Virus record (IMG/VR): IMGVR_UViG_3300043437_000207
Span: 1-61,225 of that record
Source: a virus
Taxonomy: Duplodnaviria; Caudoviricetes
Direction: 5' to 3' (one strand)
DNA length: 61,225 nt
The translations under genes and the position numbers were made by a program. A model generated the notes under the pieces. The model did no database searches. It saw nothing but the letters and a program-made list of their open reading frames with translations, and was not told the origin of the DNA. Shown here piece by piece: positions 21,672 through 47,900 of the stretch. Positions within the stretch are counted from its first letter, which is position 1. The number at the start of each line of letters is the position of its first letter.

Positions 21672-21687
21672 ACATCAAAGATTAATT

Positions 21688-22323
21688 ATGGCAACGTATT
21701 TACAATCAATTTCTGGAATATATAAAATTACTAATCTAATTAGTAATAAGTTATATGTTGGATGTGCTTCTAATATAAGAACAAGAATAAATGATCATAT
21801 TTACAATTTAAGAAAAGGTACGCATTCAAATATATATTTGCAAAAAGCGTGGATCAAATATGGTGAGAAAAGTTTTGTTTTTGAAATAATTGAAAAATGT
21901 AGTGTTTTTGATTTACATGATAAAGAACATTATTGGGTTAATAAATTTAATTGTTTAGATAGATTAATTGGTTATAATCTAAAACCAACAGATCCTAATG
22001 GTTGCTCTATTCATTCAGAAGAAACAAAAGAAAAATTAAGACAAACTAATAAAGGTAAAAAGCCATCTGCTTTATGTATTCAAAAACTTAAAGAAAGAAC
22101 TTTATCAATAGAGCATAAAGAAATTTTAGAAAAGTCAAGAAAACTTGTAAACTTTAAAGAAATACATAGAATGAAAAGAGGTAAAAAAGTCTTAGATACC
22201 ACAACAGAAATTGTCTATAGTTCTTTATCTGAAGTATGTGAATTACTAAATATTAAAAAAAGTTCTTTAAGCCGAAAATTATCAGGTAAAAGAATTAATA
22301 AAACAACATTTAAATATATTTAA
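21688..22323 (+). mobile_element. Free-standing GIY-YIG homing endonuclease (NUMOD3 plus C-terminal HTH)
   Basis: SGIYKITN...LYVG...R motif, NUMOD3-like HSEETKEKLR and a C-terminal NUMOD1-like YSSLSEVCELLNI; more AT-rich than its neighbours. Confidence 0.9.
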
Positions 22324-22325
22324 TT

Positions 22326-28400: not shown

Positions 28401-31400
28401 GACAAGATCATTATGATGAGTTGATTAATAATTCTATGACAGCTATTCAAAGAAATACACTTCTTGAAGAATTAGCTGAAAAAGGAATTTATGTTGACTT
28501 AGAAGAGTTTGCTGAATGGTGCCAAGATAATTCTAAGTTGCCTACATACTTTGTTGATCAAGTAAACAAAAGAATTATCAATAAAGACAGTTACATCTAT
28601 GATAAGTATATTGAGTATTTTGATCTAGCTAAAAATGCTGAAACAACTAATGCTCCTAGACCAAAAAGTACAGAAGAGCAGAAACTTGAAAGAACAATTG
28701 ATAATTATAACAATCAAAGAGAAGGTGAATTAGAAACTGTCAAAAATCAATATGACCAAAGCTTAAAAGATCTATTGGGTTATACTCAAGAAGAGATTGA
28801 TGAGATGCGTGATAAAGCTATGTTTGATGCTGACATGACACCGGAGGAAGCAGCTGAGGAATTAGAACTTGTCAAAAAAGCAATTAAACAATTAGATTCT
28901 GATAATCATCTTGAGATAGAAGCAGTATTTGATCTTGCTACAGAAAATGACATGTTTACTCCACAAGAGTATAACATGGCCAAAGAAGATTTGTTTAGTG
29001 ATGAAGATTCTGTAAATGAAATGGCTGACTTAGCTGAAAAGTTTACTGATGCTGAAGAAGAAGAAGCTATGGAAGCTGCTTCTAATGTATTAATTCTTAA
29101 ACCATTACTAGAAAAAAGAATAGAAGTTCTTCAATCATTTGTAGATGGAACAGCAATGGAGGGGATTCCTAACTATGAGGAAACACAACCCTATAAGGAT
29201 TACACAGAAGCGGTAGATGAAATCAATACTAAGTATGATGGTCTTATAGATGATGCTAGAGCAGAATTTGATAAGGCAGTTAAGGAAGGTGTTGAGTCCA
29301 CTAGACCTGAAGCAATGAAGAAATCCATCCAGGAAGTACAAGAGTTATTTGCTGGAAAAGAAGATATTGTTCAGACTAAAAGAAACTACATTATAGATGG
29401 TGAGGTACATGAAAGAATGTCAAACAGAATTAAAGCTGGTCATGACACTTATGGATACACTGGAGAAAAAGATCTTATGGATCTTTATGATGAGACTATT
29501 GGTGCAGCGCTTGCTGAGGATAGAGAATTAGACCAAGATTTGATTAATGAGTTCATAGAAGCTTTAGTAGCTGCTGACTTACCTGGTGTAAACACAAATA
29601 CTTTTACTGCAGATGTAGTAAGAGATGAGTTAGAAACATTAATTAAAACAGATGGCACTAAGTCTAAAAAGATTCAGAGATATATTTCTAAACTAAAATC
29701 TCAGTTAAGTGATATTGAAAATAAATTAGCTTCAGTAAAAGATAAAGACCGTCTTGCAAGCTTGCAGAAACAGAAAGTAGAATTAGAACAAGCTATTAAA
29801 GATGAAGAGGCTGGTAAGTTTGATGAGCCATTTGAAATGACATCAGACAATATTAAGTCTTTTATCTTAAATACTGTTAAGGAAAATGCATATGAAGAAT
29901 CTAGAGATGCGGGTAACATAATTGACCCTATGCTTAAAGATTATCTTGATACAGCAACTTCTGTAAAACCTAAGTGGGATCCTAAGAAGATGAGCAAAGA
30001 AGCATATGACGCTTTGTTTGATGATGAAACAGGTTACCTTACTGAGCTTAAAAGAAGAGCTGATGCTGGTGAGATCTATATTTTTACCAAAAATCTTATT
30101 GTACATGCTAATGATTTAGTAGATGCTGATGGTAAAAAACTTCCACCGGTAGCTGGTGAAATTGATATGATCATTGTTGACCGTAAAGGAAACAAATTTA
30201 TTGTAGATTTAAAAACAGGTAAAGTAAGAAAATGGTTTAACTATAAAACTATAGGAACTGATTCATTTAAGAAACAGTTAGAAAATACTTTACAACAAGT
30301 GGGATATGCAAATCTTGCAGAAGACATGTCTGGTCAACAATTTGGAGTTAAAATTTTACCTATTGAGATTGGCTTTGATAGTAAAGGTTATATTGTATCT
30401 GCAGGTAAACCAACTAATCCATCTATGTTTACGGGTGAAGAAGTTGTTGGAGATGAAGGCAGTGAAGCTTACACAATAGGATTAGATCCTACAAATATGA
30501 TTCAGGTTAAGAAAGAAGGAACCAATGTTTATGAAAACATAAGTATTGAAGATTTCATGCAAAAACTTATTCCTGTAAGAAGAGTGCCAGGTAGTAAAAG
30601 ACCAAAGCTTACTGTTAAAAAAGAAGTTTCAATCCCTGAAGAAGAAAGAGAGTTTGTTGATGACTTTATGAACAAACTTGCCAATGCTGGTCAGGCAAAA
30701 CCAAGCGGTAAATCATCAACTGCCCCTATAAGGAAAGCAGTAGTAACAATAGAAGATGCCATAGGTAAAACAGTATATTATAATGGTAAGCCTTACACAG
30801 TAAATAAAGAGGGTGTAAGATATGTACTTGAGTCAGAATCTACTGTTATTGAATTAGATACTACAGCTTCAGAAAATTTAAGTGATCTTGGTATTGACTA
30901 CTTTGAAGGAGAGTTCTATACACCTAAGTATGATGTTACAATCAATAGTGAAAATTCTGTTACTGTTGATGGTACTACATATGAGATTAGAGTAAATGAG
31001 TCAGGTAATGTAATTGGTTTAAGTCCGGAAAATAAACCAGAACAAGTTATTAAAAATGAAAGATTACTTGTTGCTGTTGAAATTGAAAGAAATAAAACTG
31101 ATTTCATAACTGAAGTTGAGGAACTAGAAGATGTTGATTATGCAGAAACAATGGATAATCTAAAAGCTAATGATCCTGCAGCTCATCAAAAACTTGAACT
31201 TCTTGAAGGAGTATACAATAAAAACTGGAATGAAACTGTTGAATCTGGTTTAAGTAAACTCTATAGTAAACAAGAACTAAATGATTCAGAAAGACTAGCT
31301 GTAGATTTATGGGTGACAGATGCTATAATTAGCATGACTAAATTATACACTAGACAGTCAGATGAAATTTATGCTAAAGGATTAGATAATCTTGAAATTA

Positions 31401-32293
31401 TTAATACACTTTTATATGAAGGATACAATGAACAATTTACAGAAGTTGGTGCTAATGAGCCTGCCAAAAGAACAGTTAAACAAACTGAAAGTCAAAAACA
31501 AAGAAAGCCAGGTAAAAATGTCACAGAAACAAACACCAGTGAAACAGTAAAAGAAACTGTTTCAGATAAAGAATACAAAGATTTTGTAGATAATGGTGTT
31601 GTTAAGAAAAGCAGAATAAAAAGTATTGCCGTAAATATACAAAAAGGTAATACTTTATCTCAAAGAGAGATGGCAATTTTTTCTGATAAAACATCTGAGA
31701 TCAATGATATGATTATTCAGATGACAGAAAATAAAAATGTAGAAGATTCCATTAAGGAAGATACATTTGATCAGATTCTTGAATTGTATGCTGAACTTGA
31801 TAAGGCTAAACCTAAATTGAGTGAAGAATCATACAATATGCTTAAGGAACAACTTGATGCCCGCGCCTCATTATTGTTTGATGAAACAGGAAATATAGTT
31901 TTAAAAACCGGAGAAATTTATATCTTTACAGCACCGGTAAAAGATGAACAAGTTGCTCAAGGATATAGAGTTAAAATAGATAGTTTTGACCCTATGGCTA
32001 AAACAGTTACTGTATCTAATGTTGGTCCTGGTAATAATAAAACTTTTACTATGAGTATCAAAGACTTTAATGATAGTGCAATGAGTGAAGAATTAATAAA
32101 CAATATGCCTAAAGAAGATGAACCATATGTTCCTTCTGAAGAAGAATTAGATCACTTAACAGAAAGTATGGCTGTTACAGATGGTCAGTTATCTGATTTT
32201 GAACAACTTGCCAAATGGGAAGATGAAGCATCAGCAGATACAATATCACTTGATGATTTAAAAAATGATTTCTTTAATAATTTTAAATGCTAA
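25478..32293 (+). CDS. Giant ejection protein with a Gly-rich hydrophobic segment and a PD-(D/E)xK nuclease-like domain
   Basis: 2271 aa. GALIGAAVGAVGGEGIGAAPGAVIGG hydrophobic stretch (~26150-26290); AGEIDMIIVD...IVDLKTG...QQVGY RecB-type motif (~30150-30310); ends in Cys. Confidence 0.7.
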   Translation: MAEETNVPDEGVKDLSQMSEFIAPAEIGVNLHKSMISPALDINKYNTKATISNPALRIKDTTKGSAPYHPKKITSPNSKEYGGLKGIMDDLRAELSQNVDKNAYSKIYAYDSSPKGAHKARYKGYGQETYDKIGFTPEIDNETWFNANTTMYDDWKRMATQAAWPMMKLGFMSPIHSYGKLFGQADIGQDLAEARDYEEYNAIGYSTKGGIGGFMINLQNSAAYSVGILAESVVEGALIGAAVGAVGGEGIGAAPGAVIGGVVEGFGALLKLPGTLFNMSKNLGKMTMNLKKFEKISEVRNLFGNAGKSMGNFVNPISNTSEAAMKYVFKNPDDLSNLARSARTVGALWHDVKNMNAALSEGRLEGGFTEQRVFDELYNKYYEKYGVAPSDELQKDMRKQAKVAGYQNTWKNTLLVHYSNNIAFPSIARAGFMKGLPTFSKTVGKVGPFQLVYDPAKKVASELAYSAEKVSLRNAVKAFTKPAAYGKTALNYFKANLVEGFQETAQDVLSDATENYYINSFKNKDRQNFEYSMATLNGAMKKQISAQGLETFASGFAMGSILGIPGGVKDFMSVGYNKYFKHRNNYDEYIQKRQDEVDTIVDALNTMDKGAKNFFDPRLTNYTTQMLAGKVADDPEGATTKEAKDTSFAAFQSAVRTSLRTGTFDMFLKNYEGYKQATPEELEQAWRLQPGQGQKALLNIDKSIANAKTIAARWQYTKNKFPHVVNPANFKDDTPEKEMAEVYNEAYLAGIDNLVFMGSAFDNNAERLDQMYSKLSSIPVIQNSRFSEIATITDPARLTKEIAMLRTEIELSKNAATPEAKEQYEKQKDLLDKLTSFQKEQSGVTVDFFKRIMNAQKTIMQTEGISANEAQVKAVDQVTKEFEDEGLHPFESYKTSFRDLLDTLAGSEENKANLGRQLDDAGGFDDIFEILADTHLLRDENMRLNKFINVLNSPQDFYEHVQRNFEWMKKLYNNRQDHYDELINNSMTAIQRNTLLEELAEKGIYVDLEEFAEWCQDNSKLPTYFVDQVNKRIINKDSYIYDKYIEYFDLAKNAETTNAPRPKSTEEQKLERTIDNYNNQREGELETVKNQYDQSLKDLLGYTQEEIDEMRDKAMFDADMTPEEAAEELELVKKAIKQLDSDNHLEIEAVFDLATENDMFTPQEYNMAKEDLFSDEDSVNEMADLAEKFTDAEEEEAMEAASNVLILKPLLEKRIEVLQSFVDGTAMEGIPNYEETQPYKDYTEAVDEINTKYDGLIDDARAEFDKAVKEGVESTRPEAMKKSIQEVQELFAGKEDIVQTKRNYIIDGEVHERMSNRIKAGHDTYGYTGEKDLMDLYDETIGAALAEDRELDQDLINEFIEALVAADLPGVNTNTFTADVVRDELETLIKTDGTKSKKIQRYISKLKSQLSDIENKLASVKDKDRLASLQKQKVELEQAIKDEEAGKFDEPFEMTSDNIKSFILNTVKENAYEESRDAGNIIDPMLKDYLDTATSVKPKWDPKKMSKEAYDALFDDETGYLTELKRRADAGEIYIFTKNLIVHANDLVDADGKKLPPVAGEIDMIIVDRKGNKFIVDLKTGKVRKWFNYKTIGTDSFKKQLENTLQQVGYANLAEDMSGQQFGVKILPIEIGFDSKGYIVSAGKPTNPSMFTGEEVVGDEGSEAYTIGLDPTNMIQVKKEGTNVYENISIEDFMQKLIPVRRVPGSKRPKLTVKKEVSIPEEEREFVDDFMNKLANAGQAKPSGKSSTAPIRKAVVTIEDAIGKTVYYNGKPYTVNKEGVRYVLESESTVIELDTTASENLSDLGIDYFEGEFYTPKYDVTINSENSVTVDGTTYEIRVNESGNVIGLSPENKPEQVIKNERLLVAVEIERNKTDFITEVEELEDVDYAETMDNLKANDPAAHQKLELLEGVYNKNWNETVESGLSKLYSKQELNDSERLAVDLWVTDAIISMTKLYTRQSDEIYAKGLDNLEIINTLLYEGYNEQFTEVGANEPAKRTVKQTESQKQRKPGKNVTETNTSETVKETVSDKEYKDFVDNGVVKKSRIKSIAVNIQKGNTLSQREMAIFSDKTSEINDMIIQMTENKNVEDSIKEDTFDQILELYAELDKAKPKLSEESYNMLKEQLDARASLLFDETGNIVLKTGEIYIFTAPVKDEQVAQGYRVKIDSFDPMAKTVTVSNVGPGNNKTFTMSIKDFNDSAMSEELINNMPKEDEPYVPSEEELDHLTESMAVTDGQLSDFEQLAKWEDEASADTISLDDLKNDFFNNFKC

Positions 32294-32297
32294 TTAG

Positions 32298-35200
32298 ATG
32301 ATCAGTTGTCCAATTACCCAGTTACCTCTTGAAAATTTTTACAAGTATGTATTCCGCGCTATTAAAGATAGACTAGGAAATGATAAAACCTTTGACGTAA
32401 ATGATTTCATGGAGAAGTTGTTTGAGGAATCGGTTAAAAAGGCTGATCCTGAAACTGCAGCTAAATGGTTGCAAAGTACTCCGCGTGTAATAAATTTAAT
32501 TATTACAAAATCATTTAGTGATAAGATTCCTTTAGTAAAAGGATTAGAAAATATTTACGGATTGATGGCTGATTTCTCAAAACCAAACGGTGAAGGATTT
32601 CAGAATGTACTTAAGAAATATATAAAACCTGTAGATACTAAAGATCTAAAAGGAGAGGCTGCGCATCAATTGTCACTTGAGTTTTCTGATGAAGAAGAAG
32701 AGGGTCCTGAAGATGAGAAAAAAGAAACAAACCCAAGAGTTGAGGCAAGACTTAAAACTCCTGTGGTTATGTCTGGTACACTTCAATCATTTGTTCCGGT
32801 AGATCCATCTAGAAAAACTGATACTTACTCAGAAAGACTTGATAAACCAAGAGCTCAAATCCTTACTAATCTTGCAATTCTAGGTGATGCATTAAGTATG
32901 CAAGATCCATTTGATGGAGAGTTTACATATCAAGGAAAGAAAGTAAAAGTTAAAGCAACAAACTTATATACATTTGCTCAACAGAATTTTAATGATTTAG
33001 ATCCTACAACTCAGCAAGAGATTAAGGATTCAAACTTTTATACTAGCACAGGAAGAAACAAAGAAGGTGTTACTCAAAGTGATAAAAGAGTAATACTTGT
33101 TATTACAGATGATGCTGGACAGAACTTATATTTTGATACAGAAGGAAACCTTACTACTAAAGGTAATGGAACTCTAGTGTATCAATTCATGAGAGATGTT
33201 AGACAAACCTCAAAAGGTTATACAGTAACAGATATCTATGGAAAAGAAGAACAGTTAATGCCAATTGAGACTTATGCCCAACTAACATATGATGAAAAAA
33301 TTGACGGAGACTATCCTACATATCTTGAGAAAGTAAAAGATGATAGAGAGAAAGAGCTTAAGAGATTGTTTCAAATAAGAGAAAGTGCATTAGGTAATGA
33401 CATGATGTTGGAATTCTCAGGTCTTAGTGCCGGAGTTACTTCAGATCTCACAGCTACCAAACTTCCCCTATCTGACTTTCTAAAGATACCAGGAGCAACA
33501 AAGAAAGACTTAAAGAGTATCCGTACTCTTAAAAAAGCAGAAGGTAACTTTGGAGAGGGTAGAGCTGTAATTAATTTAAATGGAACAGACTTCCAAGTAA
33601 ACAGATCATCTATGCCAGACAGTGTAGCTGACCAGATTGCTGCAGTTATGTTTGATCCTAATATTCCTTTTGAAACTAAAAAAGATTTCTATTCACAGTT
33701 TATTCCGGAAGATAGTACAACCAAGCTTGCTTATACTATGAGAAAGCATGAGATCATTCCTGATATGGTGAACCAATCATTTAGAATTAAGCTATATGAT
33801 AAAGTAGGTGACAAGTATGGATTTGTTACTGAGCCTATTTTTGATTTTGTTATTTCTAAAGCTGTATTAGATAAGGCTAGTAGAGAAAAATTAGATGCCG
33901 GTATTAAGACTTTTAGTGACACTCTCAAATCTGGTAGAGCTAATGGTAAAGCAACTTACATGTCATACAAATCTGACTTGTTGAATGATGAGGAGTATTT
34001 AGTATACAATTCAAATACAAAACAAATTGAAGTTGCAAACTACATTGATTTTTTATCCACACTTGATGGTTACGTTGATTTATTTGACGGAGATCCTGGT
34101 TTCTACAATAAGCACCTGTTGTTTAATGAAGAGAATAAAGTGGAAAAAGAAATTAAAATTGCTTCTGCGGCAGCATCACAAACATTTGAAGAGGCCCTTG
34201 AGGAATCAATTAAATTAGCAGAAGAAAGAAAAGCATTGGAAAATGCTGATAAATCTCCTATGGAAATTGAGGCACAAGTTATTGCTGATCGCGCTCTTTC
34301 TCCAGAGTTTAGAGCTCAGTTAGCTCAACAAGGAATGGAAGGAAAGTATGATACATACTATTATGCCGCAAGTCTTATTCAAGCTATCAATACTAATATT
34401 AGTCAAAGATATACCAGAGAAGCTGCTGAACAGTTGCGTGATATATTTGCCGGTGCAAGATACATAAACGGTAAACAAATTAATACAGTCACTGATATTA
34501 TCAATAGAGCATTTCCAAAAGCAGAAGGACCTCTTCAGAGAGAAGTTGAAATAATCCAAAAGACTGTTGAACCTGAAATGCCAGACCCAACAACAATAAA
34601 TCCTTCTCCTAAGAAAGGAAGCTTACGTTCTAGAGCACCTAAGAATGATAGCTTAAACCGTGAAGGATACATGGCTGATGAAATTGGTGAAGAAGATACA
34701 GCTAAAGTCCTTGACTGGTGGAACAATACGGCATTAGGAAAAGAGTTACAAAAACATATTGAACTACAACATGCATTTAATCTGGTTAACTCAGATGTAT
34801 TTGCGCGCTTTGTAGTTAGCGGTGCTACATTAGCTAATCCTGACATTAAAGGTAAGATTCAAATTAATAAAGGTGTAGGTACATTGGTTGATGTTTACCA
34901 TGAAGCATGGCATGGTTTCTCTCAATTGTTTCTTACCCGTCAAGAAAAATACAGTCTTTATGATGAAGTAATTAATTACAAAGATGCCAGCGGAAACCAA
35001 CCCTATAAGTCTATGGACTATAAGGCAGTTGATGAGTTACTAGCTGAAGACTTTAGAACTTATATGAAGAGCAATTACATTAAGAAAGGTTCTCCTATAA
35101 GAAATAAACTCTTCAGAAAGATTATGAATTTTATCAGAAGCTTGTTTGGTAAAAAAGCAATTAATCCAACTGAAGTTATCACAGATGTAATGAATGTTCC

Positions 35201-38200
35201 AGCTGTGAGAGAATTGTTTGAGAAATTAAACTATAGTTCTAATAAGAAATCATTTGTGAGATCATACAAAGCCAATATGGATAATGTTGACTTTATGATG
35301 TTGAACCGTGGTATTAGTAAATTAAATAGACCAAGTGATAGTGCCCTTAGTGATCAAGACTCTAGATTAGTTTCTGATACTATGGACATGATCATTTCTG
35401 ATTTTGTTGATGATTGGTACAGAGAAAGAGTTGAAGAAGCTGAAGAAACTGGTAACTATAATAGTTTAAAATCTGGAACTATTGGTTTACTTATTGATCC
35501 AGACCACCGTGCATTCATGTATGAGGTAATCAAAGAAAGATTACAAGATAAGTTGGATGAGTTTAAAGAAAAATTACATTCTCAAGAAGGTGTAACACCT
35601 TTTAGTGAAATTAAAGCTTTAGAATCTTCTGACCCTAATCAGAAAACAATTGAATCAGAAGCAGTAGCTGTATTAAGATCTAATAAAGGAGAAGACAAAT
35701 ATGTATTCCTTAAATCACAGATTGATGGTTTTGATAATCTTGATGCTAACATGCGTAGAGGTACCAGAGTTAGAGGTGAGTCTTGGCATGGTATCAAAAT
35801 AGTTGGTGACTTCTATTCACATAAATCTATTAAGAAAGGTAAGAAGCCGGTAGGGATAATTGTAGTTTCTAGTTTAGAGGATGCTCAAGTTCAGTTTGAT
35901 AATTATAAAGCTGGAGGAGCCGAAGAGTATACAGATTTTGAAGTTAAAGATGTTCCGGATTACATGTTGTCTGCAGAACAAGAATTTATGTTAGATAATG
36001 TTAGAATTCTACAAGCTGCTGTAGATAACTTTGGAGATCCACAATGGGATATTAAAGGTATTGAAGCTACTGGAACAATTGCATATCACTTAGAGAATTC
36101 AGATTTTGATTTATCTAAAAAGAAATATGAGCTTGATTTTGACATGTTAGATGAGAATGGTGATGAGATTGATGAAGATCAAGAAAATGAAACTCATGAT
36201 TCTGAAACACCATTTGGTAGTTCAGCGGGTACTAAAAAATCTTTGATGCAATTAGCTGATAAAGAAGTAATCTACATTCTTAAAAGTTTGTATAAAGTAG
36301 ACCGTAATGGTAATGTTGCATACAATAGACTTGGTTTTAAAGAGCGCGCAGATTTCAAGAAAGTTTGGAACATTGTTACTAAAGCAATTGGTGGTATAAG
36401 AGATAGAGAAAAAGCATATGAGACATTAATGGCAGAAGCAGAAAACTTTCCAGAAATAGCTCAGCTTATTGAAACTAAATTCCCAGATCCAAGATTGATT
36501 ACTAATACATTTGAAATAGATGTGAGTAATTCATTCTGGCAAACATTTGCAAAACCTTCAGTTAAATACTGGCAATTCACTGTGTTCCCACAATATGAGC
36601 CGGGAACAAACTTCCTTACAGGGGAAACAGAAAATGTATTAAAAGGATTTGAAGCTGATGTTACTCAATCATCTATTGAAGTAGATAGCACTATTAGAAA
36701 ATTTGAATCAATTTTCAAAAGTAGTATAGCAAATGATTACATAGAAAAGAATTCAGATAACCAATCTACTTTAAAACTGGATGACGTAATTACTGCATTT
36801 GAGAATAAGAAATATCCTGGTCAGTTAGATACATCTAAAGCATTTGAGTTTGCTGCAGCATTAGGTATGAAGCTTGATGCTTTACCAGTTATCAAAAAAA
36901 ATATAGAAGATAGAGCAGAGTATTTTGGGTTACCATATATCTATGATATTATAAAAGACTTTGCAGGTATTCAGAAATCAAATAAAAGCACTGAACAACA
37001 ACTTGAATACTTAAACAAATTTGTTAGTAATCCAATAGGGACACTAAGAGGTGAGATTCCAAAAGGAATACTAAAAAGCTTTAAGAAAGAAGTAGCAGAA
37101 AAGAATATCCTTAAAAGAATTGCTGAGTTACAATCTCAGTATGGATATGATTCTGCTAATCCAGGTATCTTGCTACCGGACGGTAACAGAGTATTTGAAA
37201 ATGTAAATCATAGTCAAGTTACAGTTACTGTAGATGCAATAAACAATGTTGAAAATCTTAGTGATTTCTGGAGCAAACCAGAGCTAGGTTATATGTCACA
37301 CTTGAGACCAGGTAAATCATTCTTTACTTTAAGATCTAAAATTTTTGGAGCTATGTTTGACACTGCTCAAGGAACCTTTGATAGAAAAGGAACCAGATCT
37401 TTAGAGCTTTTACAAACTGCAGGTACACAGATAGCAGAGATGGAAGGAGTGAATACATCTGACTTAGATAAGTTAGGTAAATTCTTTCAAGAGTTTCATA
37501 CTATGAGCTTAAATGGTATAGCAGAGTTTATCCGCCATGCTGAAAAGAAATCTGCATATGGTATCAAGTTACTGGGTGGTAAAATGAAAGTTATTGTCAA
37601 TGGTATTACAAATGGTGTTGATCAAAACTTATACATTGATATCAGTAAGTTTGTAACTAAACCAAATGAACAAATTAGTGATGGAGAAATAGTTGCTGTA
37701 GGTGGTTATTTCCTTGACTATATTGCTGCAGAATTTGATAGAATTAGATACTTTAAACAAAATCCACAGGATCTTAAAAATATCAAAGGTTACAACAGAG
37801 AGATTAAAGATAAGAATGATAAATTAATTGGTAGAGCTGGAGAATTCTTTACTGCTTTTGATAACATCTTGAGAGATCAAACCAAAAAAGATTTATATGC
37901 TTTGGCATCTGATCCTTTGGTAGATTTACCTACCCATATCAGAAATAACCAAGGACTTTATTTAAAAATTCAACAAGACATTGCTGATTATTTCACTGAG
38001 AAAACAGAAGCAATGTATAATGATTACTTTAAAGATCTGCCTTATGTAGACAATAAGGTTTATGAGAAAGCTGGTATAGAAACTAAAGGTGATATATCTG
38101 ATGAATCAAAGAAAGCTGTTCTTAAATCTTATTTGTTTAATGACTGGATACATAAATTTGAAATGTTTAACATTTTCAATGGTGACCTTTCTCAGTTCAA

Positions 38201-41200
38201 TCATGACAAACAACAAGCAAGTAAACGTGCACCTGGTTCTACATCAGATGGTGATGGATTTGTCAATGATAAGTACATGCATGAATTCATTAACAAAGTG
38301 TTCAACAAGAATACTTATGCTAAAAAACTTGCTAAAGAAACAGGTCTTGACTTAGATAAGTTTGTTATGAATGGTACATTGAATACCGGTGTCATAGCAG
38401 ATGCAGAAAGAAAGTCTGTATATCTAGATGAAATGTTAGAAAGCTGGAAAGAGCAATATACAGCTGCCCTAACCCCTTTATACACAGATAAAGCTGCATT
38501 AAAGAAAGAAATAGATAGAAGACTTGCAAAAGATGCTAAGGCCTATAAGAAGATGACAGAATCTGATGGTGCAGCCTTTATGACATTTGATGCATACCGT
38601 ACACTTAAAAAACAAGGTAAAAGCTGGACCATTCCGCAAGAAACATTATACCAACAGATTGTTGCCGGAGAACAAGTTGATCCTTTAAAAGTAAAAGAGT
38701 TCTTTCCAATTTACAAACTTCATTACTATGGATCAATTGCTAATGCTCCTATAGCAACAACAGGAATGCATAAGTTTGCAGTAGCTCCTATTATTCCAAC
38801 TATTGCAGTAAAAGGTACAGAGCTTTATAATTTACATGTAAAAATGATGAAGGAAAATCTTCAGTATGTAGCATTTGGTTCTGGTTCTAAAGTTGCCACA
38901 CTTACTATGACTGGAGACTTTGATAACATCTTTGGTGATGAAACACAGAAAACAGTTTCTGCAGATGCACCAATTAGAAAAAATGTTATCTACTTGGAGT
39001 ATCTTAAGGATGTAACTAAAGTTGCAAGCAAACTTAAGAAAGAAATTAGCTATCCTACTCAGAAACGTGTATTATTATTAGATGGTCTCTTCAATGTTGG
39101 AGATGTAATTAACAAAGCAAATGCTGAAATAGCTAATAACTACAAAGCTAATGTTAAGGATTACACTGAAACATTAGCTCTGGATTTATTAAACAAGATA
39201 GGTTATGAATATGATCCTAAGACAGAAAAGTATGTTGGAAAGTTAGATAAGTTTATTGAACTTATCAGAGATGAATTAGGAGCTAAAGAAGTTCCTGAGC
39301 ATTTGATTAAACTTCTGGATACTACACTTAGTGATCAGCTATCTATGGACTTTTCTATTCACCCAGAGGCTGACATGCTTGAGAAAGTTATTGTAAATAG
39401 AATTCAAAAAAGTATAATAAAACAGAAGACAAAGGGAGAATCTATGGTTCAAGCTCCATCCACGTTCTATAACGGTGTGTGGGACAGTGCCTACCAAAGA
39501 GATGAAGCTATTAAAAATAATGATGAATTAATCAGAAAATATCTGGGTTCTAACAACTTACCTTTTTATACTAGAGGTAAATTAAATAAAGATGGTACAA
39601 GACAACCAACTTCAGCTATGAAAGTTGCAATACCTATGAATGGTGACTTTTTGAACATTCTTAATTTAAAACATCCTGATGGAGAACTTATTGGAACTAC
39701 AGACCGTCTTAATGAGTTAATTAAAAATGATGAGTGGTTAGATAAGAACAGAGAGCTTATCACTATTGTAGGACCAAGGATCCCAACAGATGCTGCTAAC
39801 TCTATGGAATTTGCTGAAGTATGGCACTTCCTTGATGCTAGTGCAGGTAACACAGTAATTGTACCAACTGAGATTGTTGCAAAAGCTGGATCTGACTTTG
39901 ACGTTGATAAGATTTTCTTCATGCTACCAAATATAAATTCTGATGGTACTTTAACTAAGGCACCTGCAGAAAATTTGGAACAGCTTACCAAGATGGTAAA
40001 AGAATCTAATAGTGTTAGCAAAAAAGTAAGAAAAGAAAAAGGGTTACCAAATCCTCAAGCTTTAATTGATCAGTACAAAAAAGCTGCACAAAATAAATTA
40101 ATCAAAAACACGCGGGACATTCTCTCCTTACCGGACAACTATGCAAGTTTAACAAAACCTAATAATACATATCTTGTAGAAGATGAAGTTGAATTCTATG
40201 ACAAGTATTCTAGAGGGTATAACAACAAAAAGAATGCACATGGTGAGTCTGTAAGGATAAATGGTGACAAAGAAGTAATGAGTCCATCAAGATCATTAGA
40301 TAATGATTACAACTTAAGTCAGCATGAAGCAATGTTATCTGGTAATATGCCGCTTGGTATTATGGCCAAGAAAAACAAAGTGCATGCATTATTCAAAAGT
40401 GTAGGAGCTATTATGCCGTTATCATACAATGCCACTGTGTGGAATGATGAAACTAAAAAGTATGATGAAATTCCTGCTCAGTATGATGTTGTAATCCGTA
40501 TGAGACATAATAAAACTATGTTTAATGAAAATATTTCTTTATCTAATCAGAATAATGTAGATGGTGAAAAGATTGGAGATATTTTTTCTCATGGTCTTCA
40601 AGGTTTGCTTGACCGTGCTAATAATCCTTTTCCATTTAAATTACAAATTGTAAAAGAGGCATTGGGTACAATCAATCACCTTATTGAAGCTGGAGTAAGT
40701 GTACCAGAAGTATTTGCTTTTATCAATAACCCTTGGATTGTAGATTACATTCAGAAACAAATGTACTATGGAGGCTCAATGGCTAAGCTTCAAGAAGCAC
40801 CTGTTCCTAGTCATCAAGTAAAATCTACAGCCTTTAGGGAGACTGTGGCTTCTCTTGTTTCTGCAGGTGGTGAAGAAATGAAGAAAATAGTTAAGCAGGT
40901 GGCAAACTATGCAAATGACCGCAGAATGATGGACATAGCTGATATGCTAAAACAAAAGGATCAAGATAAAGTTTACATCATTAAAACAAAAGATGCAGAA
41001 GGAGAAGAAGTTCTAAAAAAAGCTACTGGAAAAAGAATATTTCATAGTAATGACTTTCCAGTAGATCAAATTATTGAGTTAAAAGAATTTGAAGAAAATA
41101 CAGACTATGATAGTTTAAAAACTTTATTCAAAAGATCCGGTGGTATTGCTAATAATGATAACTTCTATTATGCATCAGAGGCTTTATGGAATAGAGCATT

Positions 41201-44078: not shown

Positions 44079-44998
44079 GTTGTATAAACAAAGCAGATAA
44101 AGGTTATAAGGCTTTGCAGAGTGTCTATGGTGACGCTCTGGCAGAGGCTTTTGTCCGTGGGTATCCTACAAATACTGGAAGGTCAGAAGACTCAACATTT
44201 GATATTCCTACTAAGCAAGAAGTTAAAGACTGGCTTACTGAGAAAAAGAAAAACATTCCTAGTTTTATTAAGAGAGCAATGGAGCTTAATCCATACATGT
44301 CAGAGACAGCACTTAAAAGTATGTTGAAAGGTGTTATAAGTAAATACCAAGATGCCTACTTTATTACCACTGGTTTTATAAATTCAAGGTTACCATCTAT
44401 AAATGTTGAAGCTTTAGAAATTATATATAAGCCAAACAAAAAGGTAATGCAAATGTTACAAGAGGCTTATCCTGATATTTTTAAATTGCGTGAAACAAGA
44501 GATCCAAACTCAATAATAGTAGAGATCACTCCTAGAGTTAAATCTGAGACTGATGATCTTTTTGAGGATATTGAAGAAGAGATGTCTAGTGCTGATGAAA
44601 TAGATTTGGAAGATAGTTTGCGCACCTATCAGTCTATAGTAGAGACAAATAGAGGACGTAAACCTGTAGAGTTTATGGCAGGCACTTTAAAATGGCAGTT
44701 AAACAAAAATGGTTTATACAATTTAGTAGATAAGTATAACAATGATGTTTACTTTAGAAACATGGATTTAGAAACTGGAGAAATGGTTCCAGAAGGAGAT
44801 CCTGGTGTGCCTCTTGATGAAGCAAAAAGAGATAGAATTTTCAGAGCAGTATTGCAAATGATTAAAGAACAAAGATTTGATGAGTATCTTGCTGTAAAAG
44901 GTATTGATACTGCAGATATCTATGAGTCTTTAAGAGATGCAAAAACTGATAAAGATTTAAATAAAGTTATAGAAACCTTATTGAAAGCAATATGTTAA
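44075..44998 (+). CDS. Virion-associated protein of the RNAP/ejection cluster
   Basis: 307 aa, overlaps both neighbours; starts MSCINK and ends KAIC. Confidence 0.6.
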   Translation: MSCINKADKGYKALQSVYGDALAEAFVRGYPTNTGRSEDSTFDIPTKQEVKDWLTEKKKNIPSFIKRAMELNPYMSETALKSMLKGVISKYQDAYFITTGFINSRLPSINVEALEIIYKPNKKVMQMLQEAYPDIFKLRETRDPNSIIVEITPRVKSETDDLFEDIEEEMSSADEIDLEDSLRTYQSIVETNRGRKPVEFMAGTLKWQLNKNGLYNLVDKYNNDVYFRNMDLETGEMVPEGDPGVPLDEAKRDRIFRAVLQMIKEQRFDEYLAVKGIDTADIYESLRDAKTDKDLNKVIETLLKAIC

Positions 44999-47900
44999 GT
45001 TGTCCAAGAAAAACAAGTAGAGAATGGCAAGATGTTCTTGCAAGAGCTCATGGTAATGAAGATGAAGCAATGAGAATTTGGATTGAAGAAGAGTATGAAT
45101 TCAATCCAGATTTAAATGTTGTAGTTAAAGAAGAGAACTATGAGGATGAACGTCAAGGAGTGCCTGGCCAAGAAGAGCTGGAGAATGATGATTTTTCTGG
45201 ATTAGTACAAAGAATCAAAGTTTACATCAACAAACAAATTGAGATCTTAAACAGTAAGAAGATTGCAAATGTAAAGTACAAGCAAAGTAAGTTAAAAGAA
45301 TTACTTACTGCTGTGGAAACTATGGATGGTGTAGCTTCAATTGGAATGTTTGTCAAGGATGCCTATGATAAAGCTAAACAAGTAGAGATTAGATTTGGTA
45401 AGCTATTAGCTAATAAAAAGAACATGACTTCTAAAGAGATCATGATTGAGCTGACTGGTATCAATGACTTTGCAAATAGCTATTCTATCTTAGATGAAAT
45501 TGACTCAGCTGATATGATGGACTATTTTACAACAGGAGCTGGAGTAGAAGATACATATGGCCCAATGACACCACAAAAGATGTTAACGGACGCTATTAAA
45601 ATCAGAGACAAGGTGAAGAAAAAAGTAGTCACTGAAGCTATTCCTCTTATGGCAGAGTATTTAGTGGAGTATAAGTCTACCCTACAAGACAAAACCATTC
45701 CTGAAGCAATTGCAAGATTACAACAAGAGATAAAAGACATTGAAGCTAATACAAAAATGTCTGATAAGACCAAAGCATCTGAAATAAAAAAGAAGCAAGA
45801 CTCACTTAAACTTTGGGAAGGATTTGATGTTGACCAAGGGTCAATGGAGAAGATTCTTAAGATGGCCAATAGGGATGAAGGAGTTCTTGACTTTTTGCTT
45901 TCACCTCTTATTACATCTTCTGATAGTGCTATGGCTTTATTTGCTAAGTCTGTTAAGAGTCAGTTAGAATTTGCTAGACAAAAGGATATCAAAGTCAGAG
46001 ACAGACTGGTTGATGCATTTCAGAAGTATAGAAAGACAGCTCCGGCTTCTTCAGATAACACAGCTAAATTCAATGAAGGAATTTATGATGAAGTTGAGAT
46101 ACCTATATATGATAAAGACGGTAGTATTTCCGGAAGCAGAAAAGAAGTACAGTTTGTTCAGAAGTTTGACATGAGTAAGTTTAACAAAGTAAAAAGAGAA
46201 TTCTTTGAAAAGTTGGGCCCATTGCCACAGAAAGTTGGAGAAAAAGCTACTAAGGAAGAAGCAGCTAAAATCAAGGCTTGGTGGGAGGCCCGCAATAAAT
46301 GGTATATAGATAATACACAAGCAAGACCAAAAGAAGAAAGAGATAAGATCATTCTCCAGATGCAAAAGGATAGAGACAACAAAATTATTAGTGAGGATGA
46401 TTACAATAAATGGCAAAGAAAAAATGTAAATGAGTATAAAGGTGTAGTAAATTACTTTGATGATCTTGCAACTCCATCTAATAAATATAAGAGTGATAAG
46501 TGGGATGCCATGTATGACTCTAATGATGTTGCAAAGAATGAGAAAGGTAGATATCATGCTGAGTTACTTAAGATTTATTTTGAAGCTCAAGCTAAACTTC
46601 CTGAATCACAGCAAAAAGAATTCAGAGTTCCTTCTGTTTCTAAGTCTGATCTAGAAAGAATAATGCAAAACGGTCTTAAAGACTTTGCTAAAACAAATGT
46701 AAGTGAAGCTGTCAAAATGCAATCATGGGATACAGAGTTTAAATTAGGTTCATTATCTGAGGAAGATGTAAAGTTCTTACCTATTTATTATACACAGAAG
46801 ATGGATGCTAAAGATGTTACACTAGATTTTGCAATGTCTGTTCTTGTCTTTAGTGCTATGGCCAATAAGTATGAAGCTTTGAATAATATAAATGCTGAAA
46901 CATCTCTTATGAAAACTATTGTTGGTGCCCGTAAAGTTCCAGAAACAAATAGTAAAGGTCAAGGTATACTAGATGCATTTGCAAAGAAGTATGGTTATGA
47001 AGAGTACATCCGTCAGAATGGTGAGAGTTATTCTAAAAAACATCTTGATGCATTTATAGACATGGTTATTTATGGTGAGATGCAAAAAGCTGAGGAGATC
47101 TTTGGTGGATTATCACTTACTAAAATTACCAATACTGCTATGAGTTACTCAGCAATTACTACAATTGCAGCTGATTTACTTAAAGGTGTGGCCAATAACT
47201 TACAAGGTAATATCCAAATAATGATTGAAGCTGTAGGTGGACAGTTCTTCAACCGTAAAAATCTAAGAAGAGGTAAAGCATTTCTTGCTAAAAACTTACC
47301 GGGAATCTTAAGTGATTTTGGAAAACCTGCCCCTACTAGCCTAGCAGGAAAGTTAGTAGAAAAATATGATCCAATGCAAGGTAACTTCAAAGATAACTAT
47401 GGTAAGAAAGTAAGTATGAGTATGGCAAATAAATTATTCCGTACAGATACTCTTTTCTTTAACCAACACTTTGGTGAATATGAAATCCAGGTATCAACCA
47501 TGTTTGCATTATTTGATTCTATTAAAGTTTTAGATAAAGCTACAGGAGAAGAAATAACATTACTACAAGCATATAATACCTATGGTGCAGATGAGGCACA
47601 CAGCAAAATAAAAATTGCAAAGACTAATAGCAAGGGTGAAGCAGAACTAGATCAAGATGGTAAACCTTTGTATGTTCCTTTTGGGGAAACACAAAGACAA
47701 GATATACAAGCTAGACTTCATGGGTTAAACAAGTATATGCATGGTGTTTATAATGATTTTGATAAAGGTACAATTCAGAAACATTCTCTTGGCCGCCTAG
47801 CATTAATGTGGAGAAAACATGTTGCTCCAGGTTATAAGAGAAGATTCAAACGTGTATCTATGGATCATGAAATTGGTACACCAACTGAAGGATACTATAG

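What the first reader, a model, noticed from the sequence alone, without database searches (positions are those of the whole stretch)
32288..45003. Cysteine 'daisy chain' across four consecutive ejection proteins
Seen: the 2271-, 3926-, 307- and 1143-aa proteins are almost Cys-free (by eye one internal Cys in ~7600 aa), yet every facing terminus carries one. The junctions are ...NNFKC* | MISCP... (32288/32307), ...SLKCKLS* | MSCIN... (44064/44081) and ...LKAIC* | MLSCP... (44993/45001). The outer ends (N-terminus of the first, C-terminus of the last) have none. All three N-termini have Ser-Cys, and all three C-termini are amphipathic helices ending at or near Cys. Inference: these are gene-order-matched docking modules joined by disulfides or a shared metal ion. 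They would link membrane-segment protein, RNAP polyprotein and the final TM protein into one ~850 kDa chain threaded through the tail in fixed order and released on reduction in the cytoplasm.
Basis: partly seen in the sequence, partly recalled or inferred. Interest (0 to 1): 0.88.

Follow-up and report, generated by a model that had tools for sequence, protein, structure and literature searches.

The report
Cysteine-linked chain of crassvirus cargo proteins
In this crAss-like phage, and apparently throughout its order, the giant proteins packed in the virion with the RNA polymerase contain almost no cysteine except one at each end that faces the next protein, which suggests they are joined end to end, probably by disulfide bonds, into one long chain for delivery into the host.

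Summary
The four proteins (2271, 3926, 307 and 1143 aa) hold 7 Cys in 7647 aa, and 6 of these lie at the three facing termini (chance about 1.5e-14).

The window is a Crassvirales fragment with ring, muzzle and virion RNAP genes.

The pattern holds widely:
- 40/40 full-length homologues of the 307-aa protein have Cys only at position 3 and at the end.
- 106/120 RNAP giants have Cys at both ends, against 19 interior Cys in 462,509 aa. Most exceptions are truncated or mis-started gene calls.
- 102/102 junctions in 77 viral loci carry both Cys, and 0/77 last proteins have a C-terminal Cys.
- 12/12 junctions in 10 annotated Crassvirales carry both, including phi14:2 gp67/gp66/gp65 and a ΦcrAss001-like phage where one partner gene lies on the opposite strand.

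Within the window's lineage, fused forms lose both Cys and split forms gain both.

Best reading: head-to-tail covalent junctions, most likely disulfides, stand in for peptide bonds. The chemistry, threading and release on reduction are inferred. I found no description in print.

The parts
25478..32293 (+). First chain protein, 2271 aa (gp67/gp47-like). It has no N-terminal Cys. Its only conserved Cys is the last residue (codon 32288-32290). A hydrophobic segment lies at residues 225-246 (26150-26215).
   Evidence: 70 of 72 full-length-range representatives have a Cys in the last 9 aa and 0 of 72 have one in the first 8. There is a weak BLASTP match to the ΦcrAss001-like 2341-aa protein (2.9e-6).
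32298..44078 (+). Second chain protein, 3926 aa, the virion RNAP giant. Cys4 is at codon 32307-32309 and Cys3923 at codon 44064-44066.
   Evidence: C4 and C3923 are invariant in alignment A3 (21 sequences).
34899..34913 (+). HEAWH (HExxH, zincin-like) motif, residues 868-872 of the 3926-aa protein.
   Evidence: H868, E869, A870 and H872 are invariant in A3. The motif name is recalled; no Pfam hit.
39894..39908 (+). DFDVD catalytic motif of the two-barrel RNAP, residues 2533-2537.
   Evidence: tblastn matches to phi14:2 g066 'Catalytic RNA polymerase subunit' and crAssphage gp44.
43188..43838 (+). AlkB-like 2OG-Fe(II) oxygenase domain, residues 3631-3847. This is a variable 'payload' position in relatives.
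   Evidence: Pfam PF13532, E 3.9e-12. At this position relatives carry PF08719, PF00075, helicase domains, PF25176 or PF18760 instead.
43875..44078 (+). C-terminal junction module of the 3926-aa protein, about the last 50-67 aa (...FYNxLTEEQKxILGNLDDLI...YIESLKCKL[S]).
   Evidence: Conserved in A3. Kept in L008 although the preceding domains are replaced. Absent from the fused L060_782.
44075..44998 (+). Third chain protein, 307 aa. The N-domain is residues 1-155 (44075-44539) and starts MSCINK, with Cys3 at 44081-44083. An acidic disordered linker covers 159-177. The C-domain is residues 178-307 (44606-44998) and ends ...LLKAIC, with Cys307 at 44993-44995.
   Evidence: The C-domain alone is fused to the end of 10 of 120 RNAP giants, without boundary Cys.
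44992..48423 (+). Last chain protein, 1143 aa (gp65/gp49-like). It starts MLSCPRKTSREW, with Cys4 at 45001-45003, and has no C-terminal Cys. A TM-like segment lies at residues 1002-1029 (47995-48078).
   Evidence: 5.4e-49 to phi14:2 gp65; 67 of 68 homologues have Cys at position 3-5, followed by Pro.

Best explanation
The window is the late-gene half of a crAss-like phage (Crassvirales). The four proteins are its RNAP-associated virion cargo block, corresponding to phi14:2 gp67 | gp66 | gp65, with the gp65-like part split into 307 + 1143 aa.

Each break in this block is bridged by a matched pair. The upstream protein carries a short C-terminal module ending in Cys, with 0-3 residues after it in the window's wider clade and up to 8 elsewhere. 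The downstream protein carries an N-terminal 'Cys box' with Cys at position 3-5, typically C-[PI]-x-[KE]-x-[ST]-x-[EQ]-[WY].

I propose that the two modules dock and the two Cys form an inter-chain disulfide once the particle leaves the reducing cytoplasm. This would concatenate the proteins head to tail, C-terminus to N-terminus with polarity preserved, into one roughly 867-kDa pseudo-polyprotein.

Because the Cys sit at the extreme ends, the joint is almost unbranched and could pass a narrow channel as an extended chain. Interior Cys are purged so that no wrong pairs or loops can form. After delivery, reduction in the cytoplasm would free the parts.

Shown here: the pattern, its order-wide conservation, selection at the amino-acid level, junction-specific partner classes, and gain or loss of both Cys with gene fission or fusion.

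Inferred: docking, disulfide chemistry, threading order and reductive release.
For: (1) Anatomy: 6 of 7 Cys lie at facing termini and none at the outer ends; P about 1.5e-14.

(2) Identity of the block:
- CrAss ring 1, ring 2 and muzzle Pfam hits lie upstream.
- The RNAP core matches phi14:2 gp66 and crAssphage gp44, with DFDVD at residue 2533.
- The 1143-aa protein matches gp65 at 5.4e-49.

(3) Conservation:
- 40/40 full-length 307-aa homologues (45-100% identity) have exactly two Cys, at position 3 and at the last or penultimate residue.
- 67/68 homologues of the 1143-aa protein have Cys at position 3-5. The exception is N-truncated.
- 106/120 RNAP giants have both terminal Cys, against 19 interior Cys in 462,509 aa.
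- Of the other 14, 8 are N-truncated, 1 is C-truncated, 3 are mis-started, 1 has its Cys ninth from the end and 1 is unclear.
- 70/72 gp67-like representatives have a C-terminal Cys, 0/72 an N-terminal one, and 5 interior Cys in 156,602 aa.

(4) Pairing rule:
- 102/102 junctions in 77 loci have both Cys. 80 loci were fetched and 3 were dropped for lacking a complete last protein.
- 0/77 last proteins have a C-terminal Cys.

(5) Order-wide: 12/12 junctions examined in 10 annotated Crassvirales of three families carry both Cys, and the outer ends never do.

(6) Not a DNA or translation artefact:
- In PhiCrAssBcn1 the gp47-like gene is on the opposite strand, yet its only Cys is third from the end.
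- Intergenic spacing varies from -20 to +18 nt.
- Both Cys codons are used and the residue before the N-terminal Cys varies.
- L007 and L008 keep the pair without a start/stop overlap.

(7) Fission and fusion:
- L008/L055 splits the giant protein, and the new break carries ...LKECY | MSCINP... where the window's fused protein has no Cys.
- 10/120 RNAP giants carry the 307-aa C-domain fused on, with no Cys at the boundary.
- L060_782 (Cys 3 and 782 only) equals L055_762 plus the C-domain of the 300-aa protein. It lacks the KCKL module, the MSCINK N-domain and both Cys.
- Unsplit gp65-like proteins have only the N-terminal Cys: phi14:2 gp65, the 1349-aa, the 1419-aa and P0096.

(8) Partner classes: C-terminal motif class and downstream N-terminal class map almost one to one in 75 distinct junctions.

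(9) Precedent:
- Inter-subunit disulfides are seen in the ΦcrAss001 tail and portal-vertex protein (Bayfield 2023, passages read).
- Cys suppression in ejected proteins is documented for Schitoviridae (PMC11445570, passages read).
Against: - There is no biochemical or structural evidence. The redox state of these Cys in virions is unknown.
- Virions assemble in a reducing cytoplasm, and many crassviruses live in an anoxic gut, so oxidation is not guaranteed.
- One Cys per terminus does not exclude a metal bridge or another thiol chemistry.
- Parity alone also fits other topologies: N-to-C closure within each middle protein plus first-to-last pairing, or pairing between copies.
- The class-to-class match is confounded by shared ancestry.
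- Two of 72 gp67-like representatives (P0347, P0353) lack a C-terminal Cys, and P0204 is unexplained.
- In distant fused forms, single interior Cys lie near the roughly mapped fusion zones: crAssphage gp44 Cys2220, cr110_1 Cys2348 and 2604, cr108_1 Cys1534. The mapping was too coarse to say whether these are remnants.
- Homology between the three N-terminal modules is only suggestive (hhalign probability 52% over 25 columns).
Confidence: 0.6

Rival explanations
1. The junctions are real, but the two Cys share a metal ion (for example Zn) with other ligands from the docking modules, or from several copies of the chain, rather than forming a disulfide.
For: There is one Cys on each side, in conserved modules that also hold invariant acidic residues (D20 and E24 in the 307-aa N-domain; E3919 nearly invariant in A3). 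A metal site would form in the reducing cytoplasm and in an anoxic gut. Several copies of each cargo protein per virion are proposed for ΦcrAss001 (Bayfield 2023, passage).
Against: No His or second Cys is conserved near either terminus. The C-terminal motifs differ greatly between clades apart from the Cys. A Cys as the very last residue, in 42 of 69 distinct junctions, suits a simple thiol-thiol link better than an ordered coordination shell.
Confidence: 0.12
2. The terminal Cys pair, but in another topology. Each middle protein might close on itself (N-terminal Cys to its own C-terminal Cys) while the first and last proteins pair with each other, or like termini of different copies might pair. 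In either case no linear hetero-chain forms.
For: Counting Cys cannot separate these topologies, because a split always adds one C-terminal and one N-terminal Cys. Copy number above 1 per virion is plausible.
Against: The C-terminal motif class follows the downstream protein's N-terminal class, not the protein's own N-terminus. RNAP giants with the same N-terminus (MI[ST]CP...) end in KCKL, LKECY or ILxKLC according to what follows. The KCKL module and the MSCINK N-domain appear and vanish together. Pairing of like termini would not explain why the outer ends never carry Cys (0/72, 0/77).
Confidence: 0.1
3. The terminal Cys serve another chemistry or signal. Possibilities are a thioester-type ligation or processing step that makes or breaks a peptide bond at the junction, covalent attachment to another virion component, or recognition by the phage's zincin-like protease or a packaging factor.
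For: An invariant HExxH motif sits in the RNAP giant and in P0096. The Drobysheva preprint suggests fused polyproteins are cleaved into components (passage). The N-terminal Cys box is a conserved 10-12-residue motif, more than a bare Cys needs.
Against: The Cys is not at position 1 and the 2-4 residues before it vary. No intein or Hint-type or other Pfam domain lies at the termini. With 0-3 residues after the C-terminal Cys there is no room for a splicing domain. Attachment to a third component would not predict strict pairing across each break.
Confidence: 0.07
4. The pattern is a by-product of nucleotide-level constraints at gene junctions (overlapping start and stop codons, translational coupling signals), not of protein function.
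For: In the window AGTTGT follows each start codon, and ATG-containing strings overlap two of the C-terminal Cys codons. The 307/1143 junction is ATATGTTAA with an ATG overlap.
Against: The pair persists without overlap (L007, L008) and with spacings from -20 to +18 nt. It uses TGT or TGC and nine different residues before the N-terminal Cys. It also persists when the partner genes lie on opposite strands (PhiCrAssBcn1).
Confidence: 0.01

Closest known systems
Crassvirales RNAP-associated cargo proteins (phi14:2 gp67/gp66/gp65; ΦcrAss001 gp47/gp50/gp49)
   Same: The same gene block. It has a DFDxD two-barrel RNAP giant, a gp65-like protein after it and a gp67/gp47-like protein before it, downstream of the ring and muzzle genes. 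The phi14:2 and ΦcrAss001-like proteins show the same terminal Cys.
   Different: The window's lineage splits the gp65-like part into 307 + 1143 aa and adds about 1100 aa and an AlkB-like payload to the RNAP protein. The terminal-Cys rule is not mentioned in the passages I could read of Bayfield 2023, the Drobysheva preprint or the 2026 N4 paper.
Cys-free ejection proteins of N4-like phages (Schitoviridae gp50/gp51/gp52 types)
   Same: Both are giant virion RNAP and companion proteins with strong suppression of Cys. The DEV paper attributes this to passage through the periplasm (PMC11445570, passage). Interior Cys here is 0.003-0.008%.
   Different: The Schitoviridae proteins are reported as essentially Cys-free throughout. 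Here one Cys is kept at each facing terminus. No sequence relationship was found (0 PDB sequence matches at E<=1 for the 3926-aa protein).
Fused 'polyprotein' forms of the crAss-like RNAP block
   Same: The same modules are joined by peptide bonds: crAssphage gp44 is RNAP plus gp65-like, and cr118_1, cr4_1 and cr7_1 are gp67-like plus RNAP. This argues that covalent continuity of the block is tolerated or useful.
   Different: In split forms a Cys pair sits where the peptide bond is missing. The preprint proposes proteolytic cleavage of the fused forms, the opposite direction of processing.
Interchain disulfides of AB-type translocated toxins (established knowledge, recalled; one review seen only in a search listing)
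   Same: Works alike in principle. A single disulfide tethers a translocated chain to its partner and is reduced on reaching the cytosol, releasing the active part.
   Different: Unrelated proteins. There it is one link in a two-chain toxin made by cleavage of one precursor; here it is serial head-to-tail links between separately encoded phage proteins.
Docking domains of modular PKS/NRPS assembly lines (established knowledge, recalled)
   Same: Matched C-terminal and N-terminal modules on separately encoded proteins keep a fixed order. Fusion makes them dispensable.
   Different: Those are non-covalent and belong to a different biological setting. No homology was tested or implied.
Inter-subunit disulfides of the ΦcrAss001 tail and portal-vertex protein gp57
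   Same: They show that crassvirus particles use inter-chain disulfides (Bayfield 2023, passages).
   Different: Those stabilise the static tail and capsid. The present pairs are in the ejected cargo, which was not resolved in that structure.

Membership tests
Crassvirales virion RNAP cargo block | Giant protein with the two-barrel RNAP DFDxD catalytic motif, homologous to phi14:2 gp66 | tested here: met
   DFDVD at residue 2533. tblastn to phi14:2 g066 gave 5e-8 and to cr108_1 6e-20. BLASTP to gp66 gave 3e-13.
Crassvirales virion RNAP cargo block | gp65/gp49-like protein encoded after the RNAP | tested here: met
   The 1143-aa protein against phi14:2 gp65 gave 5.4e-49, and against the ΦcrAss001-like 1349-aa protein 1.4e-55.
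Crassvirales virion RNAP cargo block | gp67/gp47-like protein encoded before the RNAP | tested here: inconclusive
   There is only a weak local match of the 2271-aa protein to the ΦcrAss001-like 2341-aa protein (2.9e-6 over 129 aa) and none to gp67. Position and Cys pattern agree.
Crassvirales virion RNAP cargo block | Crassvirus structural context (tail ring and muzzle genes upstream) | tested here: met
   Pfam CrAss_Ring_2 (1.9e-22), CrAss_Ring_1 (2e-9) and crAss_MUZ (8.3e-30), all.
Crassvirales virion RNAP cargo block | Proteins present in virions and ejected into the host | not testable with these tools
   Known for phi14:2 and ΦcrAss001 from papers (passages). Not known for this uncultured phage.
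Inter-chain disulfide-linked assembly | A conserved Cys on each partner at the contact site | tested here: met
   102/102 junctions and 12/12 in annotated genomes.
Inter-chain disulfide-linked assembly | The two Cys are gained and lost together | tested here: met
   Split forms gain both and fused forms lack both. Distant fused forms were inconclusive.
Inter-chain disulfide-linked assembly | The two thiols are adjacent in a structure | not testable with these tools
   No structure of any junction exists. See Tried and rejected for the one co-fold job.
Inter-chain disulfide-linked assembly | Oxidised (reducible) link in the native particle | not testable with these tools
   This needs non-reducing gels or mass spectrometry of virions.
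Cys-free ejection proteins (Schitoviridae type) | Near absence of Cys over the whole protein | tested here: not met
   The interior is Cys-free (0.004%), but the terminal Cys are invariant. It works like this class in the interior and differs at the ends.
Split inteins / protein trans-splicing | N-intein of about 100 aa starting with Cys after the N-extein; C-intein ending in Asn followed by Cys/Ser/Thr | tested here: not met
   The C-terminal Cys is followed by 0-3 residues. The N-terminal Cys is preceded by only 2-4 variable residues. No Hint or intein Pfam hit.

The most novel reading that the evidence does not exclude
Crassviruses re-join separately encoded cargo proteins into one directional, nearly unbranched chain by terminal disulfides. 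In evolution a peptide bond and a terminal Cys pair are then interchangeable: gene fission creates the pair and fusion deletes it. The roughly 0.9-MDa chain, RNA polymerase and variable enzyme payloads included, is pulled through the tail in a fixed order and falls apart by reduction in the host cytoplasm. This would be a new principle of ordered protein delivery by the most abundant phages of the human gut.
Probability: 0.5. Interest if true: 0.9.

Novelty: new variant of a known kind. Interest (0 to 1): 0.82.

Why it matters
How crassviruses store the huge RNAP-associated proteins and pass them through a narrow tail is an open question. The 2026 N4 paper states that the structures of crassvirus ejection proteins are still needed (passage). 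The cargo was not resolved in the ΦcrAss001 atlas.

An invariant, order-wide sequence rule gives a concrete, cheap test: reducing versus non-reducing analysis of phi14:2 or ΦcrAss001 virions. It also gives a mechanism for fixed stoichiometry and ejection order.

It explains why interior Cys are purged to about 1 in 25,000 residues.

It offers a practical annotation rule. True starts and ends of these genes can be checked by the terminal Cys, which flagged a probable mis-annotated start in cr110_1.

It also points to a set of ejected enzyme payloads (AlkB-like, YbiA/DUF1768, RNase H, helicase) carried on the same chain.

Tried and rejected
Co-fold: one complex-prediction job was run with three chains: residues 3860-3926 of the 3926-aa protein, the whole 307-aa protein as partner, and residues 1-130 of the 1143-aa protein, each as an alignment. 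The tool's verdict was 'no answer'. Scores were 0.57, 0.60 and 0.56. With the partner replaced the score was 0.00 twice, and with chain 3 replaced it was 0.42. The tool says this is no evidence either way.

Family and structure searches:
- PHROGs gave no family for any of the four proteins.
- Pfam gave only the AlkB-like domain.
- PDB sequence searches gave nothing useful.
- Foldseek of the 307-aa model against PDB gave 0 matches at E<=0.001.
- tblastn of the 307-aa protein against GenBank phages found nothing.

Homology among the junction modules was not established:
- hhalign between the three N-terminal modules gave at best 52% probability over 25 columns.
- The comparison of the C-terminal modules gave nothing.

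Mapping fusion points in distant fused forms was too coarse to say whether the junction Cys were removed (cr118_1, cr108_1, crAssphage gp44, Rudgehvirus, cr110_1). No Cys lies in the mapped zone of cr118_1 or Rudgehvirus, while single Cys lie in or near it in the other three.

A search of the window's own record for thioredoxin and Erv1/ALR families found none. The record is only about 51% complete, and the Erv control rang nowhere, so this is uninformative.

The DNA-motif explanation was considered and rejected (see rivals). The split-intein explanation was rejected (see membership test).

Literature:
- Six full-text searches plus passages of four papers gave no mention of terminal Cys or disulfides in crassvirus cargo proteins.
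- The published Nature version of the phi14:2 RNAP paper is not held.
- Supplementary and extended-data tables of Bayfield 2023 could not be seen. These include its disulfide table and its reduced versus non-reduced virion mass spectrometry, and they may bear on the claim.

Full report
WHAT IS THERE

The + strand of the window carries consecutive ORFs at 25478-32293 (2271 aa), 32298-44078 (3926 aa), 44075-44998 (307 aa) and 44992-48423 (1143 aa). Their Cys positions are 1015 and 2271; 4 and 3923; 3 and 307; and 4. That is 7 Cys in 7647 residues. Six of them lie within 4 residues of the three facing pairs of termini, and none lies at the two outer ends.

The window average is 0.75% Cys. Random placement would put at least 6 of 7 Cys into those 30 positions with P = 1.5e-14.

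WHAT THE GENES ARE

Upstream ORFs hit the Pfam families CrAss_Ring_2, CrAss_Ring_1 and crAss_MUZ. A family-A DNA polymerase lies on the other strand.

Residues ~1750-2850 of the 3926-aa protein match phi14:2 g066 ('Catalytic RNA polymerase subunit'), crAssphage gp44 and 70-odd other Crassvirales records. The motif DFDVD is at residue 2533.

The 1143-aa protein matches phi14:2 gp65 (5.4e-49) and the ΦcrAss001-like 1349-aa protein. The alignment offset is about 270-320 residues, which is the size of the 307-aa protein. So 307 + 1143 aa together occupy the place of one gp65-type protein.

The 3926-aa protein also has an invariant HEAWH motif and a C-terminal AlkB-like domain.

The record is a viral fragment of 61,225 bases, about 51% complete. 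The block is therefore the RNAP-associated cargo of a crAss-like phage. In ΦcrAss001 and phi14:2 this cargo is found in virions (passages of Bayfield 2023 and of the Drobysheva preprint).

CONSERVATION IN THE WINDOW'S CLADE

The search with the 307-aa protein returned 45 hits.
- All 40 full-length ones (298-308 aa, 45-100% identity) have exactly two Cys: residue 3 (MSC[IV]NK) and the last residue (38 proteins) or the penultimate (2 proteins).
- The other five are one variant with a different N-half (Cys5 and last), two chimeric-looking gene calls that keep the C-terminal Cys, and two C-truncated fragments that keep Cys3.

Of 68 homologues of the 1143-aa protein, 67 have Cys at position 3-5, followed by Pro. 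The exception is an N-truncated 740-aa call.

Of 120 listed RNAP giants (38-100% identity in the core; 462,509 residues), 106 have Cys within 8 residues of both ends, and only 19 Cys lie in the interior (0.004%). The other 14 break down as follows:
- 8 N-truncated calls
- 1 start called 13 codons too early (Cys at 17)
- 2 starts called about 21-25 residues late
- 1 C-truncated call
- 1 with Cys ninth from the end
- 1 unexplained (P0204)

For the first protein I ran a full phmmer scan of 1.84 billion representatives with its last 999 aa, which listed 150 proteins. I counted only the 72 in the full-length range of 1800-2800 aa.
- 70 have a Cys in the last 9 residues.
- None has one in the first 8.
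- Interior Cys number 5 in 156,602 residues.
- P0347 and P0353 are exceptions.

THE PAIRING RULE IN GENOMIC CONTEXT

A scan of IMG/VR with the 1143-aa family returned 80 loci. Three had no complete last protein and were dropped (L086, L096, L102).

In the other 77 loci:
- All 102 junctions of the chain have a Cys in the last 9 residues upstream and one in the first 14 residues downstream.
- Counted as distinct sequence pairs, this is 69 of 69.
- 0 of 77 last proteins have a C-terminal Cys.
- Interior Cys number 17 in 218,389 residues.
- The C-terminal Cys is followed by 0, 1, 2 or 3 residues in 42, 17, 9 and 1 of the 69 distinct pairs.

Junction 1 (...FKC | MI[ST]CP...) is kept in 5 of 5 loci fetched with the N-terminus of the giant protein. 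One of these is a near-identical contig. The single interior Cys1015 is lost in L015.

THE WHOLE ORDER

I examined ten annotated genomes of Steigviridae, Intestiviridae and Suoliviridae. Twelve of 12 junctions carry the pair:

| Genome | Junction(s) |
|---|---|
| phi14:2 | gp67 ...NTIC \| gp66 MACK...QECK \| gp65 MSCK... (these are the only Cys in 5398 residues) |
| crAssphage | gp45 ...FSCM \| gp44 MSCG... |
| Rudgehvirus | ...YTCS \| MACE... |
| cr118_1 | ...HCKGE \| MICP... |
| cr4_1 | ...NCKGK \| MICP... |
| cr7_1 | ...NKKC \| MFCP... |
| cr108_1 | ...NLCK \| MANVCP... |
| cr85_1 | ...NTIC \| MARDC... |
| cr110_1 | ...MYCE \| (annotated start +14 codons) MSCT... |
| PhiCrAssBcn1 | see below |

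In these genomes the N-terminus of the first protein (9 of 9 seen) and the C-terminus of the last (10 of 10) have no Cys. Where the gp67-like or gp65-like part is fused to the RNAP, that side simply has no junction.

In the ΦcrAss001-like PhiCrAssBcn1 the gp47-like gene lies on the opposite strand. Its only Cys is still third from its end. The RNAP starts MSKRC and has a Cys 8 residues before its end, and the next protein starts MAKKC.

NOT A NUCLEOTIDE ARTEFACT

The opposite-strand case, the variable spacing between genes (-20 to +18 nt), and the junctions without start/stop overlap (L007, L008) all argue against a DNA-level cause. So does codon use: the C-terminal Cys is TGT in 69 and TGC in 10 junctions, and the N-terminal Cys is TGT in 54 and TGC in 25. 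Nine different residues precede the N-terminal Cys. Selection acts on the Cys residues themselves.

FISSION AND FUSION

(a) In L008/L055 the giant protein is split. The new break reads ...LVITKLKECY | MSCINPNN..., while the window's single 3926-aa protein has no Cys there. This is not a clean cut: the AlkB region is replaced by other domains, and the last 46 aa (...YIDTLKCKL) are kept.

(b) Ten of the 120 RNAP giants end with the C-domain of the 307-aa protein (residues ~165-307...ILxKLC) fused on. None has a Cys at the boundary. P0131 has just its two terminal Cys.

(c) L060_782 (Cys 3 and 782 only) equals residues 1-709 of L055_762 plus the C-domain of the 300-aa protein. The fused form lacks the ~53-aa KCKL module, the ~155-170-aa MSCINK N-domain and both Cys. 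These two modules therefore exist only where the chain is broken.

(d) Unsplit gp65-type proteins have only the N-terminal Cys: phi14:2 gp65, the 1349-aa and 1419-aa proteins, and P0096 with a zincin-like HEFSH N-part.

(e) For distant fused forms my mapping of the fusion point was too coarse to be conclusive.

ANATOMY OF A JUNCTION

The AF2 model of the 307-aa protein has mean pLDDT 73.7. It shows an N-domain (1-155), a disordered acidic linker (159-177) and a C-domain (178-307). The last helix (292-306) ends right at Cys307, and residues 1-8, which include Cys3, are coil. No PDB fold matches it.

C-terminal motif classes and downstream N-terminal classes map almost one to one in 75 distinct junctions:
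- xKC[KL]x to C[IV]N[KR], 11/11
- LKECY to C[IV]NP, 3/3
- YKKSC to C[IK].., 7/7
- hxxhC to CP, 42/44

This fits cognate docking, but shared ancestry also contributes to it.

HOW IT MOST LIKELY WORKS

Shown: a strictly paired, junction-specific, amino-acid-level conserved Cys at each break of the cargo block, which in the window's lineage is interchangeable with a peptide bond in evolution.

Inferred, step by step:
- The modules dock.
- The thiols form a disulfide outside the reducing cytoplasm. Crassvirus particles do contain inter-subunit disulfides.
- The result is a polarity-preserving chain of 867 kDa with almost no branch at each joint, able to travel as an extended thread.
- Interior Cys are purged to prevent mispairing. 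This parallels the Cys suppression reported for Schitoviridae ejection proteins.
- Reduction in the cytoplasm frees the RNAP and its partners.

My confidence is about 0.9 that the Cys pairs are functional inter-protein junction elements, about 0.6 that the link is a disulfide forming a linear chain, and about 0.4 for ordered threading with reductive release.

Rivals are a shared metal site, another pairing topology, and another thiol chemistry or signal. The nucleotide-artefact explanation is rejected.

NOVELTY

Six full-text searches, plus targeted reading of the crassvirus structure paper, the phi14:2 RNAP preprint and two Schitoviridae ejection papers, found no mention of this rule. I could not see supplements or the published Nature version of the RNAP paper. 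I rate it a new variant of a known kind: a phage ejection or cargo system with a previously undescribed covalent concatenation device.

Noticed in passing
window 21688-22323 (+) and 22326-25472 (+): A GIY-YIG homing endonuclease gene (PHROG 314, 9.5e-35) sits between the 989-aa and 1048-aa genes. It begins with the same six residues as the downstream gene (MATYLQ), encoded with synonymous differences after a shared TTAATTATGGC. Relatives L012, L013 and L015 have the 1048-aa-type gene (MATYLQGVTD / MATYLSGVTD) and no ORF of 200 aa or more between it and the upstream gene. This looks like a recent insertion that copied the start of its target.
   Followed up: partly
window 43188-43838 (residues 3631-3847 of the 3926-aa protein); proteins P0114-P0233: The region between the RNAP core and the C-terminal junction module is a swappable 'payload' slot. 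Across 120 relatives it carries AlkB-like (PF13532), YbiA/DUF1768 (PF08719), RNase H (PF00075), helicase or exonuclease V-type domains, PF25176 or PF18760. These enzymes would be delivered with the first proteins into the cell and may be counter-defence or repair functions.
   Followed up: no
L016 (NC_055878.1, cr108_1) 16531-16820: The RNAP gene is interrupted exactly at the catalytic motif. One ORF ends ...EIVAKAGSD, and the next annotated CDS resumes about 290 nt later. In the window the sequence is continuous (...AKAGSDFDVD...). This looks like an intron or other insertion annotated as two genes.
   Followed up: no
L017 (NC_055879.1, cr110_1) 12142-25395: The annotated start of the 4417-aa RNAP protein (MLDIAINNNKHNNSMSCTV...) is probably 14 codons too far upstream. 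The internal Met gives MSCT..., which fits the N-terminal Cys rule seen everywhere else.
   Followed up: partly
window 612-3564 (+): Three consecutive small or medium ORFs are very Cys-rich (9.5%, 3.5% and 5.3% Cys; one ends SCGCGSCNSR). They have no Pfam hit. This is the opposite extreme to the cargo block in the same operon direction.
   Followed up: no
window 11330-16204 (+) and 22326-25472 (+): The 1624-aa and 1048-aa proteins upstream of the chain contain no Cys at all and have no Pfam or PHROG family. They may be further ejected proteins, in the positions of ΦcrAss001 cargo proteins 1 and 2, that are not part of the Cys-linked chain.
   Followed up: no
window 34899-34913 (residues 868-872 of the 3926-aa protein); P0096 N-terminal part: There is an invariant HExxH motif (HEAWH) in the N-terminal third of the RNAP giant. 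A separate HEFSH motif lies in the N-part of an unsplit gp65-type relative. Zincin-like modules therefore occur at different places of the block in different lineages.
   Followed up: no
P0166, P0167, P0175-P0178, P0191, P0211 around residues 3470-3660: A second, weaker copy of the motif from residues ~198-250 of the 307-aa protein (domain E 2e-7 to 7e-5, except P0167 at 0.01) lies inside these RNAP giants, about 600 residues before their fused 307-type C-domain. This suggests an internal repeat of that domain.
   Followed up: no
L021 (cr4_1) and L022 (cr7_1): Table-11 translation of the cargo genes contains many in-frame stops: 38 and 18 in cr4_1, 148 and 60 in cr7_1. This is consistent with the stop-codon reassignment known in some Crassvirales. 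The terminal Cys pairs are still present.
   Followed up: no
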